Notes under the pieces: generated by a model
What the model was told of the DNA's origin: nothing
The model's database searches: none
What the model saw: only the letters and a program-made list of their open reading frames with translations
IMG/VR virus record: IMGVR_UViG_2608642106_000003
Reading direction: 5' to 3' (one strand)
DNA from: a virus
Lineage: Duplodnaviria; Heunggongvirae; Uroviricota; Caudoviricetes
DNA: 30,648 bases
In this document: positions 3,351 through 22,982 of the stretch, one piece after another
Layout of the letters: the number at the start of each line of letters is the position of its first letter
Numbering within the stretch: position 1 is the stretch's first letter
Made by a program: the position numbers and the translations under genes

Positions 3351-4177
3351 AAGAAATGCACCACGGAATTCATCATTTCCATGGGACGCCTGTCTGGGGA
3401 AGTGCTGGCGACGTTCATCGTATTGCGGTGAGCGGAGCTGGCGCTTTCGTCTCCTATGTACGACCAGATCAGATTGCGGCGTCCATTCAGCACGCTCAGG
3501 TCGTCGGCATTGATAACGGCGCATTTTCTGCATGGGTGCGTGGGCTAAAAATTAACTGGAGTGATTTTTATAAATGGCTCCTGAACTATTACCACCATCC
3601 TAAGGTCGCTTTTTTTGTCATTCCTGATGTTGTGGACGGAGGTGAACGTGACAATGATGCCCTGATAAACGAAGTTCCGAAAATGTTCTACGGGAAGGCA
3701 ACTCCCGTCTGGCATCTGCACGAGTCAATCGATCGGCTTATCGAGCTATGTCGTGAATGGCCTCGTGTCTGCTTTGGATCGTCTGGTGAATATGCGGCTA
3801 TCAGAACTGCGCACTGGCATCGTCGTATGCAGGACGCTTTTGAAGCAATTTATTGCCGACACAATTTCAAAACAGCTGTTCATGGTTTGCGCATGCTTGA
3901 CGGTCGTGTGTTGGGAAATTACCCACTGGCGACTGCCGACAGTACAAATCTTGCCTGCAATGTCCCCAAATTTAATAGCAAATATCCTGAGCTGACGCGG
4001 GCTATTCAGGAGGCTGAGTATTCGCGCAATCTGACGGAAAAGGAGCTGAAAGCTGTCATTCTGAAAAACCGTTGCGCAATTTTAAAAGGTGCAATTGAAG
4101 CTGTTCGCCCACCTTCAGTTTCTGATTGGCTGTCGAATGGTTTGCAGCCTTCACAGCTCGAACTGGAGATTGCGTAA
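3347..4177 (+). CDS. Hypothetical protein translationally coupled to dam; possible nucleic-acid-modification enzyme
   Basis: GTG 3347 overlaps dam stop (GTGA); alternative ATG at 3356. 276 aa, His-rich N-terminus; stop overlaps gene A start (TAATG). Confidence 0.5.
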
Positions 4178-6549
4178 TGAACTACAGCTATTCCTGGAAT
4201 GCTGAGAAAAAAGCAATCAATCCTTACGTAGAGACGGAAGAGCAATCTTCAGTTTCTGCGCTTTCAAACCTGATCGCTCTGTACGCTGCCGATAACGAGC
4301 AGGAACAGCTGCGCCGCGAGGCACTGAGTGATCAGGTCTGGGAGCGTTATTTCTTTAATGAATCCCGTGATCCTGTCCAGCGCGAAATGGAGCAGGATAA
4401 GCTCATTAGTCGGGCAAAGCTGGCGCATGAGCAGCAGCGTTTTAATCCAGATATGGTCATTCTGGCGGACGTTAATGCCCAGCCTTCCCATATCAGCAAG
4501 CCACTGATGCAACGTATTGAATACTTCAGCAGCCTGGGCAGGCCAAAGGCTTATTCCCGCTATTTGCGTGAGACGATTAAGCCATGTCTGGAACGGCTGG
4601 AGCATGTACGCGACTGTCAGCTATCCACTTCTTTTCGCTTTATGGCAAGCCATGAAGGGCTGGACGGCCTGCTGATCCTGCCTGAAATGAGTCAGGATCA
4701 GGTGAAACGCCTGTCCACCCTGGTAGCTGCGCATATGAGCATGTGCCTTGATGCAGCTTGTGGCGATTTGTATGTCACCGATGACGTTAAGCCAGAAGAA
4801 ATCCGCAAGACATGGGAAAAGGTGGCAGCGGAAACCCTGCGTCTGGATGTCATCCCGCCTGCGTTTGAGCAACTCCGCCGGAAAAGAAACCGCCGTAAAC
4901 CCGTGCCCTATGAACTCATTCCGGGTTCGCTGGCGCGTATGTTGTGCGCTGACTGGTGGTACCGGAAATTATGGAAGATGCGTTGCGAATGGCGGGAAGA
5001 GCAGTTGCGTGCTGTCTGCCTGGTCAGCAAAAAAGCATCTCCCTATGTCAGCTATGAAGCCGTGATGCATAAACGTGAGCAGCGCCGTAAGTCGCTGGAG
5101 TTTTTTCGTTCTCATGAACTGGTGAACGAAGACGGCGACACGCTGGACATGGAGGATGTGGTAAACGCCAGCAGCAGCAACCCTGCGCATCGCCGCAATG
5201 AGATGATGGCCTGTGTTAAAGGCCTGGAGCTTATCGCGGAAATGCGCGGTGACTGCGCCGTTTTCTACACCATCACCTGTCCGTCACGTTTCCATTCCAC
5301 GCTAAATAATGGCAGGCCCAACCCAACTTGGACAAATGCGACGGTAAGACAAAGCAGTGATTATCTGGTCGGCATGTTTGCTGCATTTCGTAAGGCGATG
5401 CACAAAGCCGGATTGCGGTGGTATGGCGTGCGGGTGGCTGAGCCGCATCATGACGGTACAGTTCACTGGCACCTGTTGTGTTTTATGCGCAAAAAAGACC
5501 GCCGCGCCATCACTGCATTACTGCGTAAGTTTGCCATCCGTGAAGACCGCGAGGAACTGGGCAATAACACTGGGCCGCGCTTTAAGTCTGAGTTGATTAA
5601 CCCGCGCAAAGGTACGCCAACAAGCTACATCGCGAAATACATCAGTAAGAACATTGACGGGCGTGGTCTGGCTGGCGAGATCAGCAAGGAAACGGGGAAA
5701 TCCCTGCGTGATAATGCTGAATACGTTAATGCCTGGGCGTCTCTGCATCGTGTTCAGCAATTCCGCTTCTTTGGCATTCCGGGGCGTCAGGCTTACCGTG
5801 AACTGCGATTGCTGGCTGGTCAGGCGGCAAGGCAACAGGGGGACAAAAAAGCAGGTGCGCCGGTACTGGATAACCCGCGCCTTGATGCCATCCTGGCTGC
5901 TGCTGATGCTGGTTGTTTTGCCACCTACATCATGAAGCAGGGCGGCGTACTGGTTCCCCGCAAATATCACCTCATCAGAACCGCTTATGAAATCAACGAA
6001 GAGCCGACCGCCTATGGCGATCACGGCATTCGTATTTATGGCATCTGGTCACCTATTGCAGAGGGCAAGATCTGCACTCATGCCGTGAAGTGGAAAATGG
6101 TTCGTAAGGCCGTTGATGTTCAGGAGGCGGCAGCCGACCAGGGCGCTTGCGCCCCTTGGACTCGTGGCAATAACTGTCCCCTTGCTGAAAATTTGAACCA
6201 ACAGGAGAAAGATAAATCAGCTGATGGGGGCACCAGAACGGACATTACCCGCATGGATGACAAGCAGTTGCACGATTACCTGCACAGTATGAGCAAAAAA
6301 GAGCGCCGGGAACTGGCAGCAAGGTTACGCCTGGTTAAACCGAAACGGCGTAAAGACTACAAACAGCGAATTACAGACCATCAGCGACTGCAGCTCGTCT
6401 ATGAGCTGAAGTCCAGAGGATTTGATGGTAGCGAGAAAGAGGTCGATTTACTCCTTCGCGGCGGCAGTATTCCGTCAGGAGCAGGCCTGCGTATCTTCTA
6501 TCGGAACCAGCGTTTGCAGGAAGATGATAAGTGGCGAAACCTGTATTAA
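4177..6549 (+). CDS. A: Rolling-circle replication initiation endonuclease (P2 gpA family)
   Basis: 790 aa from ATG 4177; HUH-like motif ([10 protein letters not shown]) and tyrosine motif (YIAKYISKN); position as P2 gene A. Confidence 0.85.
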
Positions 6550-6643
6550 TTACGCGGGTTAACAATTCGTGCTCTTAATAATACCAGGCATATCAGGCTG
6601 ATGAACGTAAAAAAACGTTTTACATCAGTAAGATTATTATATA

Positions 6644-6659
6644 CTGTAAATATAAACAG
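6644..6659. promoter_or_regulatory. LexA (SOS) box overlapping a promoter
   Basis: CTGTAAATATAAACAG matches CTGT-N8-ACAG with AT-rich spacer; TTTACA at 6619-6624 upstream; precedes ORFs 6702 and 6902. Confidence 0.6.
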
Positions 6660-6701
6660 TGGTTATATTTACAGTATTGCTTTGGTGTCATAGGAGGAAA
6701 G

Positions 6702-6890
6702 ATGCAGGACTATTTTTTGGAGTCTTTGAAGCTCCAGCGCATTGATTTTTTTCTTAAGCTTGTAGCGGCTAGTGAGTGTAGTGATGAAGAGAAGGGGCTG
6801 GCTTTGCAGTGGGTTTCTGAACTAACAGATGAACTCATGGCAAAAATCAGAACCCACGAATACAACCGCTCAATGGATGTCATCAGTTGA
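6702..6890 (+). CDS. Small SOS-controlled protein, candidate Tum-like antirepressor
   Basis: 62-aa ORF with AGGAGG RBS directly downstream of the LexA box; position matches the LexA-controlled tum locus of 186-type phages. Confidence 0.4.
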   Translation: MQDYFLESLKLQRIDFFLKLVAASECSDEEKGLALQWVSELTDELMAKIRTHEYNRSMDVIS

Positions 6891-6901
6891 GGTGACTTTT
6901 T

Positions 6902-7135
6902 ATGCGCATTGAAATAATGATCGATAAAGAGCAGAAGATTAGCCAGTCTACCCTGGACGCCCTTGAATCCGAGCTTTACCGCAATCTGCGTCCTCTGTAT
7001 CCCAAAACGGTAATTCGTATCCGCAAAGGTAGCTCTAACGGTGTGGAACTGACCGGATTGCAACTGGACGAAGAAAGAAAACAAGTGATGAAAATTATGC
7101 AGAAGGTGTGGGAAGACGACAGCTGGCTGCATTAA
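6902..7135 (+). CDS. dinI: DinI-family damage-inducible protein
   Basis: 77 aa starting MRIEIMIDKEQKISQSTLDALESELYRNL..., closely resembling DinI (MRIEV...); GAGGTG RBS. Confidence 0.75.
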   Translation: MRIEIMIDKEQKISQSTLDALESELYRNLRPLYPKTVIRIRKGSSNGVELTGLQLDEERKQVMKIMQKVWEDDSWLH

Positions 7136-7405
7136 GAAACGTTGCTGGCGTCTGAACTTGCTTCTGGCGTCAGCAAGGTTGAACAACGAGCTATGCGAGG
7201 CGTTAGTGTCAATTTGTTACCTTAACCACTATATATGCCAGGAAATTAACAGTTCTTAAGAAACAGCTTGCATGATCGAGCGCATTGAACTTAAGTTTAA
7301 GTAACGCAATCAACAGATGATATTGTTGTCTAAATTTTAAAGATAATCTGTTGAGGTTGTAGGCGTCGGAGTGTAGACTTCCGCGCCATGTGAAAAGGGG
7401 GAGTT

Positions 7406-7621
7406 ATGTCAAGCATCGCCGCATTTAGCCTGGGTAACCCAGTTGAACGTCTGGCAAGGGTTCTTAAAGAGAACCAGGACAAACTCAATCTTAGTAAAGA
7501 TGGTTTTGTGTCCGTAGACTTGTCTAACAAAAGAGCAATGGATGCCATCAAGGCACAGATGGATAAGCTTGAAGGCATCAAAACGAGCACTGTAAAAGAG
7601 AAAACTAATAGAACCAGATAA
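7406..7621 (+). CDS. Small hydrophilic hypothetical protein (cargo, first gene of 2-gene operon)
   Basis: 71 aa, strong RBS AAGGGGGAG before ATG 7406; stop overlaps downstream start (TAATG); AT-rich. Confidence 0.45.
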   Translation: MSSIAAFSLGNPVERLARVLKENQDKLNLSKDGFVSVDLSNKRAMDAIKAQMDKLEGIKTSTVKEKTNRTR

Positions 7622-8463
7622 TGGCAACATTACTTTTAGCAGTGATTTTGGTTAGTGGTTTTATTTATGTAAACCTATCACTTTCAACAAGATACCGATA
7701 TAAGCGTTCCAACGGCTGGGACGCTTATTTTTTTGTGGCTGCCTGGGGTATCGTTTTTTTTCTCCTTGGCGGTTTTTTCACCTTTATTTTGAACGTCAGC
7801 GGAGGGTTTCGTTGGCTGGCTAATGCCTTGAATCTAACACCTGACAGTTTTAATGGCATGTTGTCTTCATCGAAAGACAAACTTCAAAGAATAAATGAAA
7901 TCAAACAGATAGCATGGGTTATGATTTCAATTGTCCTCGCTGCGATTTCAGGTTTTGGAAATAAGTTACGCACATCACGTGGAGATCGTCGCTGGGATGC
8001 CTTAGCTAAAGCTGTGGGTAATAACGCTTTCGAATCATTACTCATGGAAGCGTCCGCAAGACAGTTTCCGATCATAGCAACTCTGTCGTCTCGCAAAATC
8101 TATGTTGGTCTTGTTACTTGTCCGGCGTTAGAAAACGGGCTTTCAGAGCACCTTGAACTTCTCCCGATGTTAAGCGGATATCGGGATAAAGATGATCTAA
8201 CGATTAGTATCACGACTAACTATCACCAACATTATCTTGATAGTGGTGTGATAAGTGGAATGTCTCGGCTTAATATCGAAGATTTCCGTGTGCTCATACC
8301 AAAAGATGAGGTTGAAACAATTTCGTTTTTTGATACTGAGACATATAACAAATTTAAAGAAAATGAAGCCAGGGATAGAAAGAACTGTCGAAAGATTGAT
8401 AGTAAAAGTGCATCTTCGCGCAGCAAGCGTGCAGCAGATGCTGAGTCAAATGATCGTGCATGA
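7621..8463 (+). CDS. Integral membrane protein with soluble C-terminal domain (cargo)
   Basis: 280 aa; three hydrophobic helices (approx. residues 3-20, 36-58, 96-113) then ~165-aa hydrophilic region; translationally coupled to 7406..7621. Confidence 0.55.
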   Translation: MATLLLAVILVSGFIYVNLSLSTRYRYKRSNGWDAYFFVAAWGIVFFLLGGFFTFILNVSGGFRWLANALNLTPDSFNGMLSSSKDKLQRINEIKQIAWVMISIVLAAISGFGNKLRTSRGDRRWDALAKAVGNNAFESLLMEASARQFPIIATLSSRKIYVGLVTCPALENGLSEHLELLPMLSGYRDKDDLTISITTNYHQHYLDSGVISGMSRLNIEDFRVLIPKDEVETISFFDTETYNKFKENEARDRKNCRKIDSKSASSRSKRAADAESNDRA

Positions 8464-8511
8464 CTATGCTGCATGAGATCGCATGATCGTTTGAGGATCG
8501 TTTTTGCTAGG

Positions 8512-8538
8512 GCCCGCCAGAACTGGCGGGCTTTCGCG
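8512..8538 (+). terminator. Putative intrinsic terminator after membrane-protein gene
   Basis: GCCCGCCAG/CTGGCGGGC inverted repeat (8512-8531) followed by CTTTCGCG; U-tract weak. Confidence 0.35.
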
Positions 8539-8580
8539 TAGATCATGCACCTGCATGAAAACTACTACATAAAGCGGGCA

Positions 8581-8600
8581 GGCGTGGCGGGGATACGAGC
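8581..8600. other. cos-like cohesive-end site
   Basis: GGCGTGGCGGGGATACGAGC followed by GCGCGCTCACTGAC...TTTTCAG resembles the P2 left-end cohesive sequence as recalled from memory. Confidence 0.4.
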
Positions 8601-8675
8601 GCGCGCTCACTGACAGTTTTCAGAAAAGTATATATAATCGCCTGAAAGATCTATACGTGCAGTGGAAATCATCAA

Positions 8676-9710
8676 ATGGATAAAAGATATCAGGTTTTTG
8701 TTAGTTCAACTTTTGCTGATCTTGAAGAAGAAAGGCAGGAAGTAATGCAAGCACTGCTGGAGCTTGATTGTATGCCAGCAGGAATGGAATTATTTCCAGC
8801 AACAAATAGTGATCAGTGGAGTTTAATAAAAAAAATAATTGACGATAGTGATTATTATATTGTTATCTTGGCAGGGCGTTATGGTTCAATTGGTCCTGAT
8901 GGAATAAGCTATACAGAAATGGAGTATCGTTATGCTTTGGAAACTGGTAAGCCAGTTATAGGTTTTATTCATAAAGATAAAAGTAACCTCCCCGCAAAAC
9001 GTTGTGAGTCAAACCCTGAAGGCGTAGAAAAACTAAAGGCTTTCGAAGAGCTAGTTAAAACAAAATTATGTCGTTTTTGGGAGTCTCCTGCAGAGTTAGG
9101 TAGCCAGGTTAGCAGAAGTTTGATTAGACTAATTAAAGAATGTCCTGCAATTGGGTGGGTTAAAGGAAATTTAGTAACTAATGATGGTGATGCAAAGGAA
9201 ATATTGAAATTAAAAAGGCGAATTGAGGAGCTTGAAAGTCAACTTGTATCAAGTATGACTGAAGCGCCTGCAGGTGCAGAAAAACTATCTCAAGGAGATG
9301 AGCTTTTTGAATTGGATTATGAATTCTGTGTGTCGCCTACAGAATGGAGACATAATGGTGAAGAATATACCGATAAGGTCAAATTAAGCTGGAACGATAT
9401 TTTTTCATATGTTTCGCCTTTGATGATAGATGAGATAGTGGATGATAAGCTATATAGTGCTTTAAATAACTGTGTGCGAAATGCAGTTCAAGATATCATC
9501 TATGAGGATTTTAAAGATATGAATTTATTATCTTTAAAAGTATCTAATTCTGATTTCCAAACAATAAAAGTGCAGTTTAGGGCGCTTGGGTTAATTATTA
9601 AAAGTGAAAAGAGTAGAAGTGTTAAAGATAAAGGTACTTATTGGACTTTAACACCGTATGGCGAAAATTTAATGACAACATTGAGAGCGATTAAAAAAAC
9701 TTTGGTATAG
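8676..9710 (+). CDS. DUF4062-like N-terminal domain protein, candidate anti-phage effector (cargo)
   Basis: 344 aa; N-terminus YQVFVSSTFADLEEERQEV matches the signature I associate with DUF4062; coiled-coil-like KEILKLKRRIEELESQL; unassigned C-terminal domain; AT-rich. Confidence 0.6.
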   Translation: MDKRYQVFVSSTFADLEEERQEVMQALLELDCMPAGMELFPATNSDQWSLIKKIIDDSDYYIVILAGRYGSIGPDGISYTEMEYRYALETGKPVIGFIHKDKSNLPAKRCESNPEGVEKLKAFEELVKTKLCRFWESPAELGSQVSRSLIRLIKECPAIGWVKGNLVTNDGDAKEILKLKRRIEELESQLVSSMTEAPAGAEKLSQGDELFELDYEFCVSPTEWRHNGEEYTDKVKLSWNDIFSYVSPLMIDEIVDDKLYSALNNCVRNAVQDIIYEDFKDMNLLSLKVSNSDFQTIKVQFRALGLIIKSEKSRSVKDKGTYWTLTPYGENLMTTLRAIKKTLV

Positions 9711-9712
9711 AT

Positions 9713-9746
9713 AACAAAGGCCGTTCATATATGAACGGCCTTTGTT
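9713..9746. terminator. Bidirectional intrinsic terminator between converging cargo gene and portal gene
   Basis: Perfect inverted repeat AACAAAGGCCGTTCATAT/ATATGAACGGCCTTTGTT, followed by GTTTTATTG on plus strand. Confidence 0.55.
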
Positions 9747-10784
9747 TTATTGTGTGGGAAAGCTATATGATTCGAATTTTATAATAACTTTACCAAGCCA
9801 TTTATTTACTTCTTGTATATGCTTTTGCAGTGGTGTTAGCTCATTTCGCACAAAGACGCGGCTGGCCTTCTCCACATCCCCAAACCCCCCGACATTATTA
9901 GGCATAATCCCCATCATTTGCGGCGGCACGCGGTGCGCAGCCATCATGTCATCACGGCTCACGTTTTTGATATTCAGAAACTCATCCTTCGCTGCGACTT
10001 CTGACAACGGGATAATCTGAAGTCCGTCCTTTTTGCCGTTAGGCGAGTACATAAACAGATTGCGGAAGTTGCCAGGGCCTTTGGAGCTTTTCATCGCATT
10101 GCGGAGGTTGTTCACATCCTCCTGGTTCTGCGCGGCATCGGTCATGTACATGATGAAGCCTGCATGACTACCGTTAATGTAATACTTGCGGCGGAACAGC
10201 GTGGCGGATTCGTTGAGCAGGGCTGACGGAATGGCAGAAAGATAACCGGGCAGGCCGTAGATCTCCTGGTTGATGTCCGGTTCCATCAGATGAAAAATAC
10301 TGCCTTTCGTGAACTGATACGGTTGCGTGGTCATGCCGTATTGCACAAACCAGTAGGTATCCAGGTCTAACCCGCGTCGGGTGTATTTTGCCAGGGCAGG
10401 TTCAAGGGCGATAACTTCACCGAAGCGGTTCGTGCGTTTTTCCAGGTAGGCGTTACCAAATACCAGATAGTCCTGCACAAAACGTGAAAACGCCTGCTGG
10501 CTGAGCAACGGGTGAGGGATATAGGTGCTGGTCAGAATATTGCACTTTACTGCAATCGGTGAGCTGTGATGCACGGCGGCGCGGAAGGTTCGCGCCAGTC
10601 CGTCAAAACTCACTGGCGGCTCATACCAGCGATCTGTCTGTACGCATTCCACATAGTCCAGCAGTTCGCGGCGGTCCAGTACTGGAATGGGATCGCCGAA
10701 GCTGAATGCTTCGGCTGAAGTCTGGCTTTTATGCTGGGTCTGGTTCTGCGACGCAGCGCGGTTCTTCTTACTCTTTCCCATCAA
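9747..10784 (-). CDS. Q: Portal protein (P2 gpQ family)
   Basis: 345 aa on minus strand, immediately downstream of and overlapping terminase gene; order Q-P opposite O-N-M-L as in P2. Confidence 0.9.
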   Translation of the reverse strand: MMGKSKKNRAASQNQTQHKSQTSAEAFSFGDPIPVLDRRELLDYVECVQTDRWYEPPVSFDGLARTFRAAVHHSSPIAVKCNILTSTYIPHPLLSQQAFSRFVQDYLVFGNAYLEKRTNRFGEVIALEPALAKYTRRGLDLDTYWFVQYGMTTQPYQFTKGSIFHLMEPDINQEIYGLPGYLSAIPSALLNESATLFRRKYYINGSHAGFIMYMTDAAQNQEDVNNLRNAMKSSKGPGNFRNLFMYSPNGKKDGLQIIPLSEVAAKDEFLNIKNVSRDDMMAAHRVPPQMMGIMPNNVGGFGDVEKASRVFVRNELTPLQKHIQEVNKWLGKVIIKFESYSFPTQ

Positions 10785-20395: not shown

Positions 20396-20993
20396 TCTGC
20401 TGCCACCGGGTTCAACTTCACTGGAGCGCCGACTGGCGCAAACCTGTAGCGGGATTTCTGATTTGCAGGTGCCGCTGCGTGACTTGTGGAATCCGGCTAC
20501 CTGTCCGGTCAGTTTCCTGCCTTATCTCGCCTGGGCGTTCTCTGTGGATCGCTGGGACGAGGGCTGGACAGAAAGCGTCAAGCGCCAGGTGGTGAAGGAT
20601 GCTTTTTATATTCATCAGCATAAAGGGACCACCAGTGCCGTGCGGCGGGTGGTGGAGCCGTTCGGCTTTCTGATCCGCATTATTGAGTGGTGGCAGACCG
20701 GAGAAACACCCGGCACGTTTCGCCTGGATATCGGCGTGCAGGACCAGGGCATCACTGAAGATACCTATCTGGAACTTGAGAGGCTGATAAGCGATGCCAA
20801 ACCATGTAGCCGTCACATGATCGGCATGTCCATCAATCTGCAGACCAGCGGCCCGTATTGGTTGGGGGCAGCCAGTTATCTTGGTGAAGAAATCACGATC
20901 TTTCCGTATATCAACGAAACAATTATTTCCGGCGGCACCGCGCATGAAGGCGGGGCGGTCCATGTTATTGACACAATGAGAGTGAATCCATGA
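20388..20993 (+). CDS. I: Baseplate/tail protein (P2 gpI family)
   Basis: 201 aa; overlaps J stop and H start. Confidence 0.8.
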   Translation: MNSLLPPGSTSLERRLAQTCSGISDLQVPLRDLWNPATCPVSFLPYLAWAFSVDRWDEGWTESVKRQVVKDAFYIHQHKGTTSAVRRVVEPFGFLIRIIEWWQTGETPGTFRLDIGVQDQGITEDTYLELERLISDAKPCSRHMIGMSINLQTSGPYWLGAASYLGEEITIFPYINETIISGGTAHEGGAVHVIDTMRVNP

Positions 20994-21732
20994 GCACAAA
21001 ATTTTATACCCTGCTGACGGATATTGGCGCGGCGAAACTTGCCAGCGCCGCCGCGCTCGGTGTGCCGTTAAAAATTACCCATATGGCGGTCGGCGATGGC
21101 GGCGGAACATTACCAACGCCGGACGCAAAGCAGACAGCACTGGTAAATGAGAAACGCCGGGCTGCGCTGAATATGCTCTATATCGACCCGCAGAACAGCA
21201 GCCAGATTATTGCTGAACAGGTGATCCCTGAAAACGAGGGCGGTTGGTGGATACGTGAAGTGGGCCTGTTTGATGAGTCCGGGGCATTGATTGCCGTGGG
21301 CAACTGCCCGGAAAGCTATAAGCCGCAACTGGCTGAAGGCAGCGGGCGTACCCAGACCGTGCGTATGGTGTTGATTACCAGCAGCACGGACAATATCACC
21401 CTGAAAATCGACCCTGCCGTAGTGCTGGCAACCCGCAAGTATGTGGATGACAAAATATCAGAGCACGAACAGTCACGACGTCACCCGGACGCCTCGCTGA
21501 CCGCAAAGGGTTTTACTCAGTTAAGCAGTGCGACCAACAGTGAATCCGAAATACTGGCCGCAACACCGAAGGCTGTGAAGGCTGCATATGATCTTGCAGC
21601 AGGTAAAGCATCCGCCAGTCACACACACCCGTGGAATCAGATAACGGATGTGCCTGCAGCTTCACTGACGGTAAAAGGCACCGTGCAACTCAGCAGCGCC
21701 ACTAACAGCACGTCAGAAACGCAGGCTGCCAC
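20990..21732 (+). CDS. H: Tail fibre protein (P2 gpH family), N-terminal part, interrupted by assembly gap
   Basis: MSTKFYTLLTDIGAAKLA...MAVGDGGG...ESYKP.LAEGSGR.QT.RMV matches recalled gpH N-terminus; contains SSATNS.SE..AATPKAVKA repeats; runs into the N-run at 21733. Confidence 0.8.
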
Positions 21733-22027
21733 NNNNNNNNNNNNNNNNNNNNNNNNNNNNNNNNNNNNNNNNNNNNNNNNNNNNNNNNNNNNNNNNNNNN
21801 NNNNNNNNNNNNNNNNNNNNNNNNNNNNNNNNNNNNNNNNNNNNNNNNNNNNNNNNNNNNNNNNNNNNNNNNNNNNNNNNNNNNNNNNNNNNNNNNNNNN
21901 NNNNNNNNNNNNNNNNNNNNNNNNNNNNNNNNNNNNNNNNNNNNNNNNNNNNNNNNNNNNNNNNNNNNNNNNNNNNNNNNNNNNNNNNNNNNNNNNNNNN
22001 NNNNNNNNNNNNNNNNNNNNNNNNNNN
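21733..22027. other. Assembly gap (295 N) inside tail-fibre gene
   Basis: Run of n characters; flanks are near-identical to each other. Confidence 0.95.
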
Positions 22028-22028
22028 T

Positions 22029-22982
22029 CACACGCACCCGTGGAGCCAGATAACGGATGTGCCTGCAGCTTCACTGACGGTAAAAGGCACCGTGCAACTC
22101 AGCAGCGCCACTAACAGCACGTTAGAAACGCAGGCTGCCACACCAAAAGCCGTGAAGGCTGTATATGACCTTGCCAATGGAAAACAACCTGCCGACGCCA
22201 CACTGACCGCACTGGCAGGCCTTGCCACTGCGGCAGACAAACTTCCGTATTTTACGGGGAATGATACAGCCAGCCTGACAACCCTGACTAACGTTGGACG
22301 GAATATTCTGGATAAAGCAAGCACACAGGCGGTTATTCAATATCTTGGTCTGAGCGATGCAAGTGGATACGTTGGACGCTGGCTGAATACCCGGGTTTTC
22401 ACCTCATCAGGTACGTACACCCCGACGCCAGGAACAAAACGGATCAGGGTCACAATAACTGGCGGCGGTGGCGGTGGGGGCGGCTGCAAGGCTATATCCA
22501 ATAATGAAACGTTTTTCGGTGCTGGCGGTGGGGCCGGTGGAACAATAATTTCAATAATGACCCCGACACAGAATAGTTATCCAGTCACTATCGGCGCAGG
22601 TGGGGCCGGTGGTGTTAGTGCGACGAACGGCACCAGTGGCGGGAATAGCGTATTTGCATCGTTAATTGCTCCTGGTGGCGCAGGTGGCGGGAAAGTGGGA
22701 GTTACAAATACAAACGGCGGTAACGGAGGTGTGCCGAGTACTGGCGATATCCGCATCACTGGTGGAAATGGAGGCGACGGTCAGTCCGGAAATATCAGCG
22801 TCAGCGGTGAAGGCGGAACATCGTACTGGGGTGGCGGTGGACGCGCAGGCGCTGGCGGTGGCGTTAGCGGTAAGGCATATGGTTCAGGCGGAGGTGGTGC
22901 ATACGATGCCGGTTATAGCGGAACCAGTATGACGGGCGGGAAAGGCGCTGCAGGGATTTGTATTATCGAGGAGTTTGCATAA
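22029..22982 (+). CDS. H: Tail fibre protein (gpH family), C-terminal part with glycine-rich distal domain
   Basis: Frame from 22029 reads HTHPWSQITDVPAASLTVKGTVQLSSATNS...KQPADATLTALAGLATAADKLPYFTGND (gpH-like), then Gly-rich segment GGGGGGGGCK...AGICIIEEFA; stop 22980-22982. Confidence 0.75.
   Translation, partial: HTHPWSQITDVPAASLTVKGTVQLSSATNSTLETQAATPKAVKAVYDLANGKQPADATLTALAGLATAADKLPYFTGNDTASLTTLTNVGRNILDKASTQAVIQYLGLSDASGYVGRWLNTRVFTSSGTYTPTPGTKRIRVTITGGGGGGGGCKAISNNETFFGAGGGAGGTIISIMTPTQNSYPVTIGAGGAGGVSATNGTSGGNSVFASLIAPGGAGGGKVGVTNTNGGNGGVPSTGDIRITGGNGGDGQSGNISVSGEGGTSYWGGGGRAGAGGGVSGKAYGSGGGGAYDAGYSGTSMTGGKGAAGICIIEEFA

What the first reader, a model, noticed from the sequence alone, without database searches (positions are those of the whole stretch)
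7406..8463. Translationally coupled small-protein plus 3-TM membrane-protein operon in AT-rich cargo
A 71-aa hydrophilic protein with a strong RBS has its stop overlapping (TAATG) the start of a 280-aa protein with three N-terminal transmembrane helices and a charged C-terminal domain. The pair is AT-rich and lies between the SOS module and the cos-like site, where P2 carries the exclusion genes tin and old. This layout fits a superinfection-exclusion, abortive-infection or toxin-antitoxin-like module, but I recognise neither protein.
Basis: inference. Interest (0 to 1): 0.6.

Follow-up and report, generated by a model that had tools for sequence, protein, structure and literature searches.

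The report
Mobile small-protein plus membrane Sm-barrel cassette
The two overlapping genes are real and form a self-contained cassette that hops between prophages and plasmids: a small soluble protein and a membrane protein with an Sm-like barrel, whose gene contains a conserved terminator-like hairpin. It is a plausible but untested new phage-exclusion module.

Summary
A (7406-7621, 71 aa) and B (7621-8463, 280 aa) overlap in TAATG. A has a strong Shine-Dalgarno sequence and B has none. B has three N-terminal hydrophobic helices.

The window is a P2-like E. coli prophage. The pair holds the tin/old position, as the last genes before cos (about 8581-8599). The DUF4062 gene beyond cos is a separate, published single-gene defence.

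A+B is an autonomous cassette. B's family has about 2,000-2,900 clusters at 50% identity. In 71 of 80 genomic loci a small ORF abuts B, while the other neighbours vary: P2-like, lambdoid nin and tail regions, IncC plasmids, chromosomal islands.

New here: a terminator-like hairpin plus U7 sits inside B (7700-7734). Its synonymous sites are frozen (1 of 7 variable against 55 of 55 elsewhere, p=1e-7).

Best reading is a toxin-antitoxin-like membrane-effector exclusion module with A kept in excess. This is inference; the function is untested.

The parts
7395..7403 (+). Shine-Dalgarno sequence AAGGGGGAG of gene A
   Evidence: Read directly from the sequence. A purine-rich SD is kept in homologous cassettes from other contexts.
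7406..7621 (+). Gene A: 71-aa soluble basic protein (WP_000094764; phrog_9843). Predicted helix, beta-hairpin, helix.
7619..7623 (+). TAATG stop/start overlap (translational coupling of B to A)
   Evidence: Sequence. B has no SD of its own. Overlaps of 1, 4 or 13 nt occur in 29 of 71 homologous pairs, and the rest have gaps of 35 nt or less.
7621..8463 (+). Gene B: 280-aa membrane protein (WP_021556032; phrog_3630). N-terminal membrane region followed by a conserved beta-barrel domain.
   Evidence: ORF. PHROG hit E=8.8e-99. 57 clusters in the word-indexed search. 2,884 clusters at 50% identity with E<=1e-3 and 2,009 with E<=1e-10, mostly full-length matches.
7621..7956 (+). Membrane region of B: hydrophobic helices at residues 1-23, 34-63 and 94-112. 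Between the first two lies the highly conserved basic loop RYxxKRSxGWDAYF.
   Evidence: Hydropathy. AF2 helices 2-19, 33-60, 87-119. R29, Y36 and G43 are invariant. One distant member matches Pfam DUF6338 below threshold on this region.
7700..7734 (+). Intragenic intrinsic-terminator-like element: 12-bp stem, 5-nt loop, then U7, spanning codons 27-38 of B
   Evidence: Found by the terminator scan. RNA fold of the 56-nt segment 7690-7745 containing it gives -17.2 kcal/mol, z=-2.5. The nucleotides are invariant in homologues down to 41% protein identity. Among invariant-residue degenerate codons, 1 of 7 varies inside the element against 55 of 55 outside, Fisher p=1.1e-7. 96.7% of cells are paired against 32-49% in slid controls. 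The element is present only in the clade sharing at least about 43% identity with B. No Rfam match.
8026..8328 (+). Sm/LSm/Hfq-like small beta-barrel domain of B (about residues 136-236), with invariant SRKxYVG and LSGYRDKD motifs
8456..8607 (.). cos region bounding the cassette (cohesive-end sequence about 8581-8599, GGCGTGGCGGGGATACGAG). It separates A+B from the next cargo gene.
   Evidence: The block is conserved in 1,279 E. coli records. The linear phage records SEN8 and Midge end at window 8580 and 8589. The P4 cos GGCGAGGCGGGGAAAGCAC is visible in a cloned sequence in Rousset Table S2.

Best explanation
A and B form an autonomous, horizontally mobile two-gene cassette carried as a moron by temperate phages and plasmids. 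I propose it is a phage-exclusion module with a toxin-antitoxin-like layout.

B is an inner-membrane protein. Its N-terminal helices anchor a cytoplasmic Sm-like beta-barrel. Like other Sm-fold domains, this barrel would oligomerise into a ring and bind a ligand, possibly a nucleic acid. On activation B would compromise the membrane or block phage DNA entry.

A is a small soluble partner, acting as restraint or sensor, that is made in excess. It has the only Shine-Dalgarno sequence, and B is translated by reinitiation at TAATG. In this clade a conserved terminator-like hairpin plus U7 at codons 27-38 of B should truncate most transcripts after A.

Shown: the gene structure, the coupling layout, conservation of the pair, its mobility, the predicted fold, and nucleotide-level selection on the hairpin. 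Inferred: topology, oligomerisation, toxicity of B, neutralisation by A, attenuation, and any anti-phage phenotype.
For: - The pair, and only the pair, is conserved. A small ORF abuts B in 71 of 80 loci, and 50 of these are A homologues. Flanking genes show no recurrent third partner.
- The same cassette occurs in unrelated mobile contexts: the P2-like gpA-cos hotspot, the lambdoid nin region next to hok, a lambdoid tail cluster between K and J, the edge of a Shewanella prophage, and IncC conjugative plasmids.
- It sits in the P2 hotspot where old and tin lie and where many validated defences occur. Two diverged relatives are catalogued as hotspot systems 43 (93 occurrences) and 57 (75 occurrences).
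- Roughly 10% of immediate neighbours hit PADLOC defence models, including bSEFIR, SspH, HEC-05, PDC-S16, type I REase and MADS.
- The distribution is patchy: 52 of 5,426 complete E. coli genomes carry it.
- B's fold is Sm-like, with invariant loop motifs.
- The intragenic hairpin is under nucleotide-level selection. This fits a need to keep B low relative to A.
Against: - There is no experimental phenotype for any family member. Rousset et al. listed relatives but did not test them.
- No literature hit was found for the accessions or PHROG identifiers.
- The motifs and accessions are absent from the DefensePredictor supplementary tables. Those tables were partly truncated, and the strains used may simply lack the cassette.
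- The P2 hotspot also carries non-defence cargo such as partition systems and CDT toxin.
- Many loci lie next to housekeeping genes, and in Pseudomonas the cassette sits at one conserved chromosomal site.
- No promoter meeting the scan's 9-of-12 threshold was found upstream of A.
- The hairpin is confined to one clade.
- The A-B interaction could not be modelled.
- The B model is of medium confidence only (pLDDT 76, pTM 0.56).
Confidence: 0.4

Rival explanations
1. This is a non-abortive superinfection-exclusion module. B sits in the inner membrane and blocks genome injection or an inner-membrane entry factor of incoming phages, as HK97 gp15, P22 SieA or T4 Imm do. A acts as its cofactor or chaperone, and there is no toxicity.
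For: B is predicted to be a membrane protein. The cassette occupies moron sites typical of Sie genes, including a lambdoid tail-cluster site and the P2 tin/old slot. In some P2-like prophages it lies beside SieB.
Against: Known Sie proteins are usually single genes, and there is no homology to any of them. The tight A-first coupling and a selected attenuator inside B suggest that B dosage is dangerous, which a pure blocker would not require. An Sm-like cytoplasmic domain is not needed for blocking entry.
Confidence: 0.2
2. This is an addiction or stabilisation toxin-antitoxin module that maintains the mobile element. B is the membrane toxin and A the antitoxin, and there is no anti-phage role.
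For: The layout is antitoxin-first and coupled. The cassette is present on conjugative IncC plasmids near parB and next to hok in a lambdoid prophage. The attenuator would hold the A:B ratio high.
Against: There is no similarity to any known toxin-antitoxin family. Many toxin-antitoxin modules in hotspots turn out to be defensive, so this reading overlaps with the best explanation rather than excluding it.
Confidence: 0.12
3. The cassette has a function outside genetic conflict. Examples are a membrane-anchored Sm/Hfq-like RNA-binding or channel-like protein (a mini-MscS architecture of three transmembrane helices plus an Sm-like domain) that alters host envelope or RNA physiology as lysogenic conversion, or an anti-defence factor.
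For: B has an Sm-like fold. There are about 2,000-2,900 clusters, including chromosomal sites beside housekeeping genes. The hotspot also carries non-defence cargo.
Confidence: 0.2
4. A and B are accessory components of a three-gene system with the downstream TIR-like DUF4062 NADase, analogous to the 2TM+1TM+TIR system of phage AC1.
For: Adjacent to the pair in the prophage is DUF4062 here and a 69-aa protein plus a TIR/SEFIR protein in Klebsiella phage ST15-OXA48phi14.1. Phage AC1 combines transmembrane proteins with TIR.
Against: cos lies between B and the DUF4062 gene, so the two are at opposite ends of the virion DNA, and DUF4062 has its own 11/12 promoter. The same A+B pair is followed by SieB or by other hypothetical proteins in other prophages. 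DUF4062 is listed as a stand-alone hotspot system (63 occurrences) and defends when expressed alone. The pair occurs in dozens of contexts with no TIR-like gene nearby. A and B do not match PADLOC models.
Confidence: 0.03

Closest known systems
Unnamed P2-hotspot systems 43 and 57 of Rousset et al. 2022 (Table S5B, PMC9122126)
   Same: They have the same B family (hhalign E=4.8e-40 and 3.8e-26) and lie in the same gpA-gpQ hotspot. System 57 also lists a small partner protein that aligns in register with A.
   Different: They are diverged variants (36% and 25% identity over the hhalign-aligned columns), catalogued as hypothetical '2 TM' proteins without name, test or mechanism. System 43 is listed without the small gene.
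Type II toxin-antitoxin / abortive-infection pairs with membrane toxins (e.g. P4 gop-beta, lambda RexAB)
   Same: Each is a small coupled operon in a prophage or satellite hotspot, with a membrane protein as the presumed effector and a soluble partner.
   Different: There is no sequence or fold relationship. B's Sm-like domain and the intragenic attenuator-like hairpin have no counterpart that I know of. Toxicity and neutralisation are unproven here.
CBASS Cap15-type effectors (N-terminal transmembrane helices plus a C-terminal small beta-barrel that binds a signal and disrupts the membrane)
   Same: The architecture is analogous: transmembrane helices followed by a small cytoplasmic beta-barrel that could act as sensor or oligomeriser.
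   Different: No cyclase or other signal-generating enzyme is in the operon. B has no PADLOC hit. The barrel here is a five-to-six-stranded Sm-like fold. The comparison rests on my own knowledge of Cap15 and was not tested structurally.
Sm/LSm/Hfq superfamily
   Different: There is no sequence-level match to Pfam LSM or Hfq. B is membrane-anchored and carries different conserved motifs (SRKxYVG, LSGYRDKD). Ring formation and RNA binding are untested.
Pfam DUF6338 (uncharacterised)
   Same: One distant B-family member (P0203) matches the N-terminal half of the model over residues 3-124 at 25.1 bits.
   Different: The score is below the gathering threshold of 26.5 bits. Only 3 of 49 members match at E<=0.01, and B itself does not match. 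The similarity lies in the membrane region and may be compositional.

Membership tests
P2-like gpA-gpQ cos-proximal hotspot cargo (Rousset 2022) | Located between replication gene A and portal gene Q, next to cos, in a P2-like prophage | tested here: met
   gpA is at 4126-6549 and the portal gene at 9747-10784 (-). cos is at about 8581-8599. The accessions appear in Table S5A.
Type II toxin-antitoxin system | Two adjacent co-oriented, translationally linked genes with the small partner first | tested here: met
   TAATG overlap; A has the SD and B has none. The layout is conserved in 71 of 80 loci.
Type II toxin-antitoxin system | One product is toxic and is neutralised by direct binding of the other | not testable with these tools
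No experimental data exist.
Type II toxin-antitoxin system | Homology to a described toxin or antitoxin family | tested here: not met
   A and B have no Pfam, NCBIfam or PADLOC hits.
2TM+1TM+TIR system of phage AC1 (Rousset 2022) | A TIR protein encoded in one operon with two transmembrane proteins homologous to the AC1 components | tested here: not met
   A and B have no PADLOC match. The TIR-like DUF4062 gene is separated from them by cos and has its own promoter. The partners of A+B vary between prophages.
Sm/LSm/Hfq fold | N-terminal helix plus a five-stranded bent beta-barrel | tested here: met
Sm/LSm/Hfq fold | Sm1/Sm2 sequence motifs or a Pfam LSM/Hfq profile match | tested here: not met
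   No Pfam hit at E<=1. A profile against PDB sequences gives only YaeO (Rof) at E=0.11.
Sm/LSm/Hfq fold | Hexameric or heptameric ring that binds RNA | not testable with these tools
   No multimer prediction or binding assay was available.
MscS-like mechanosensitive channels | Match to the MS_channel family (pore helix TM3 continuous with the beta-domain) | tested here: not met
P2 Old / Tin, and SieB exclusion proteins | Sequence homology to Old (ATPase-TOPRIM), Tin or SieB | tested here: not met
   No Pfam, PHROG-annotated or PADLOC family of these kinds was hit.
Pfam DUF6338 | Score at or above the gathering threshold (26.5 bits) | tested here: not met
   B has no hit. The best family member reaches 25.1 bits on residues 3-124 only.
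Rho-independent (intrinsic) terminator | GC-containing stem-loop immediately followed by a U-tract on the sense strand | tested here: met
   12-bp stem, 5-nt loop and U7 at 7700-7734. The structure is conserved, with frozen synonymous sites.
Rho-independent (intrinsic) terminator | Transcripts actually end there | not testable with these tools
   This needs Term-seq, 3' RACE or a Northern blot.

The most novel reading that the evidence does not exclude
A+B is the founding example of a widespread, undescribed anti-phage family. In it a membrane-anchored Sm-like ring senses a phage-derived ligand, possibly nucleic acid arriving at the inner membrane, and opens or disrupts the membrane. The small partner holds it in check. 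Its dosage is set by a transcription attenuator embedded in the effector's own coding sequence.
Probability: 0.2. Interest if true: 0.8.

Novelty: new variant of a known kind. Interest (0 to 1): 0.58.

Why it matters
If this is a defence module, it adds a new protein family to the known anti-phage repertoire. The family is large (about 2,000-2,900 clusters at 50% identity across Proteobacteria and Acidobacteria). It is carried by P2-like and lambdoid phages and by IncC plasmids, and current annotation tools (Pfam, NCBIfam, PADLOC) miss it entirely.

A membrane-tethered Sm-like barrel would be a new kind of effector or sensor. An intrinsic-terminator-like hairpin under nucleotide-level selection inside a coding sequence would be a compact, testable way to fix the partner-to-effector ratio.

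In practical terms, three diverged versions of the cassette together occupy a measurable share of E. coli P2 hotspots that are at present scored as having 'no known defence'.

Tried and rejected
- Pfam, NCBIfam and PADLOC scans of A and B gave nothing meaningful. PHROGs gave only unknown-function families.
- Profiles of B against PDB sequences gave no significant hit. The best was YaeO (Rof) at E=0.11.
- Literature: there were no hits for the accessions or PHROG identifiers. A search for 'Sm-like + anti-phage + transmembrane' found only WYL-regulator papers. The DefensePredictor supplementary tables contain neither the accessions nor the motifs. Brenes & Laub 2025 is not in the held library and was not checked. 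The supplements of the 2026 NAR P2/P4 paper are not held either.
- The three-gene reading with DUF4062 was rejected because of cos, the variable partners and the published single-gene activity.
- I first took the conserved 150-bp block after B for a module-boundary repeat. It is the cos site.
- No promoter meeting the scan's 9-of-12 threshold was found upstream of A, and the upstream DNA is not conserved between contexts. The transcription start is therefore unresolved; read-through from the LexA-controlled orf62-dinI unit is possible.
- There is no Rfam family in 6500-9800.
- The U7 run also forms a U_UUU_UUU slippery heptamer. I considered programmed frameshifting and set it aside, because the hairpin lies upstream rather than downstream of the run, and the -1 frame, read by hand, seemed to encode only a short unremarkable peptide. 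This was not tested.

Full report
**What is there.** The window is a P2-like (Peduoviridae) prophage of E. coli, and 7300-8650 is 100% identical to NZ_CP062853.1. ORF A (7406-7621, 71 aa, WP_000094764) and ORF B (7621-8463, 280 aa, WP_021556032) are on the + strand. The stop of A and the start of B share one base (TAATG). A is preceded by AAGGGGGAG, whereas B has no Shine-Dalgarno sequence. A has no hydrophobic stretch. B has three, at residues 1-23, 34-63 and 94-112. GC content is 41-42% against 52% for the window.

**Where it sits.** Upstream lie replication gene A (4126-6549) and a LexA-box (CTGTAAATATAAACAG, 6644-6659) orf62-dinI unit.

Downstream of B is a 150-bp block (8456-8607) that recurs in 1,279 E. 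coli records. It is the cos site: the linear genome records of Salmonella phage SEN8 and Escherichia phage Midge end at window positions 8580 and 8589, immediately before GGCGTGGCGGGGATACGAG. The P4 cos GGCGAGGCGGGGAAAGCAC is visible in Rousset's Table S2.

A+B are therefore the last genes at the right end of the virion chromosome. According to Rousset et al. 2022 (PMC9122126), this is the locus where P2 carries old and tin.

Beyond cos come an 11/12 sigma-70 promoter (8610-8638), a DUF4062 gene (8676-9710), a terminator (9713-9746) and the portal gene.

DUF4062 proteins have been reported in 2026 preprints as single-gene NADase defences (Swarozyc/NIR). They are active when expressed alone, and DUF4062 is listed as a stand-alone hotspot system with 63 occurrences.

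**The pair is an autonomous cassette.** In Rousset's Table S5A the same A+B accessions are followed by SieB, by two other hypothetical proteins, or by DUF4062. In Klebsiella phage ST15-OXA48phi14.1 they are followed by a 69-aa protein and a TIR/SEFIR protein.

More distant B homologues always bring a small upstream gene with them, in unrelated settings:
- an E. coli lambdoid nin region next to hok (68+272 aa);
- an Enterobacter lambdoid tail cluster between K and J (72+266 aa);
- the edge of a Shewanella prophage (55+279 aa);
- the isolated phages SEN4 and SEN5, again as the last genes before the genome end (58+281 aa);
- IncC conjugative plasmids (68+262 aa).

A scan of one genome per species returned 80 loci from Gamma- and Betaproteobacteria and Acidobacteria. 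In 71 of them a 40-135 aa ORF ends within 35 nt of B's start, and 29 of these overlap it by 1, 4 or 13 nt. An iterated profile of A recognises 50 of the ORFs. The rest share the same strand-turn(G)-strand-helix pattern by eye.

The two genes on either side show no recurrent partner. They include integrases, portal, tail and terminase genes, TraG and housekeeping genes. Roughly one in ten matches a PADLOC defence model. An exhaustive profile search found 2,884 clusters at 50% identity with E<=1e-3 and 2,009 with E<=1e-10, nearly all 230-340 aa with full-length matches.

**What the proteins look like.** Neither protein matches Pfam, NCBIfam or PADLOC. PHROGs places them in the unknown-function families phrog_9843 and phrog_3630. 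Forty-nine diverse B relatives also lack hits, apart from sub-threshold DUF6338 matches on the membrane region in 3 of 49 (25.1 bits against a cut-off of 26.5). NCBI's name for A homologues, 'multidrug ABC transporter ATPase', cannot be right for a protein of about 70 aa.

The invariant residues lie in three places: SRKxYVG, LSGYRDKD and the basic loop RYxxKRSxGWDAYF between helices 1 and 2. By the positive-inside rule, that loop and the Sm-like domain should be cytoplasmic; this is inference.

A is predicted as helix, beta-hairpin, helix (pLDDT 69) with no structural neighbour.

**A conserved terminator-like hairpin inside B.** The terminator scan flagged 7700-7728 followed by a T-run: a 12-bp stem, a 5-nt loop and U7, covering codons 27-38. 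The 56-nt segment 7690-7745 that contains it folds at -17.2 kcal/mol, z=-2.5.

In an alignment of eleven homologues, the block TATAAGCGTTC...TGGGACGCTTATTTTTTTGT is invariant at the nucleotide level. The only changes are in the loop or keep pairing (C-G to U-G, A-U to G-U).

I then examined twelve homologues (41-97% pairwise protein identity), taking the codons whose amino acid is invariant and degenerate. All 55 outside the element show synonymous variation, but only 1 of 7 inside does (Fisher p=1.1e-7). Pairing is 96.7% against 32-49% when the partner strand is slid.

The element is found only in the clade that shares at least about 43% identity with B. There is no Rfam match.

The simplest reading is an attenuator that ends most transcripts after A. 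Together with reinitiation-dependent translation of B, this would keep A in excess. That reading is inference. Translational pausing for membrane targeting and slippage on the U-run are alternatives that I could not test.

**Interpretation.** The evidence supports a self-contained mobile two-gene module, carried as a moron in sites where temperate phages keep exclusion and defence genes. Its design minimises expression of the membrane protein relative to its small partner.

I therefore favour a toxin-antitoxin-like, membrane-acting phage-exclusion module (confidence 0.4). The rivals are:
- non-abortive superinfection exclusion (0.2);
- a pure addiction module (0.12);
- a function outside genetic conflict (0.2);
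- a three-gene system with DUF4062 (0.03), largely excluded by cos, the variable partners and the published stand-alone activity.

No family member has been tested. Rousset et al. catalogued two diverged relatives as systems 43 (93 occurrences) and 57 (75 occurrences, with a small partner) without testing them.

**Novelty and score.** The proteins are unrelated to any described defence, toxin-antitoxin or exclusion family. The architecture of a small partner plus a membrane effector in a hotspot is a familiar kind, so I rate this a new variant of a known kind. The Sm-like membrane protein, the size of the family and the selected intragenic hairpin make it worth testing. The absence of any phenotype keeps the interest score at 0.58.

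Noticed in passing
window 8456-8607 (cohesive end about 8581-8599): This is the P2-type cos site. The block is conserved in 1,279 E. coli records, and two linear phage genome records end at window 8580 and 8589. It splits the gpA-gpQ hotspot into a right-end slot (A+B here) and a left-end slot (DUF4062 here). A GC-rich hairpin (about 8512-8531) lies just upstream of the cohesive end.
   Followed up: yes
window 8610-9746: A separate cargo unit sits here: an 11/12 sigma-70 promoter (8610-8638), a 344-aa DUF4062 protein (8676-9710, WP_001513676) and a strong hairpin terminator (9713-9746). DUF4062 was reported in 2026 preprints as a TIR-like NADase single-gene defence (Swarozyc/NIR). PADLOC v2.0.0 does not recognise it.
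   Followed up: partly
window 6644-6659 and 6702-7135: A near-consensus LexA box (CTGTAAATATAAACAG) lies upstream of a 62-aa ORF (phrog_698) and a DinI homologue. DinI is followed by an imperfect hairpin without a T-run (about 7144-7175), so SOS-driven read-through into A+B is conceivable.
   Followed up: partly
window 7406-7621 (homologues P0059-P0076): NCBI and UniRef name many A homologues (about 70 aa) 'multidrug ABC transporter ATPase'. This is evidently a propagated misannotation.
   Followed up: partly
window 4126-6549: In the identical RefSeq record the replication endonuclease (gene A) is annotated as frameshifted, a pseudogene. The window shows an 807-aa ORF with a TTG start that overlaps the upstream 276-aa ORF, so the prophage may be replication-defective.
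   Followed up: no
window 21501-22000: GC content dips sharply to 25% inside the 374-aa ORF 20990-22114 in the tail region. This suggests a horizontally swapped segment or another accessory insertion.
   Followed up: no
L001 3493-5132 (Klebsiella phage ST15-OXA48phi14.1): In this phage the slot after A+B holds a 69-aa protein and a 477-aa TIR/SEFIR protein (PADLOC bSEFIR-like). This shows that the left-end slot swaps independently of A+B.
   Followed up: partly
H89-H92 (Cronobacter phage phiES15, Pseudomonas phages vB_Pae_U5 and U6): The tblastn matches cover only B's C-terminal Sm-like half (residues about 124-258) and lie at genome ends. These may be family variants with a different or absent N-terminal membrane region.
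   Followed up: no
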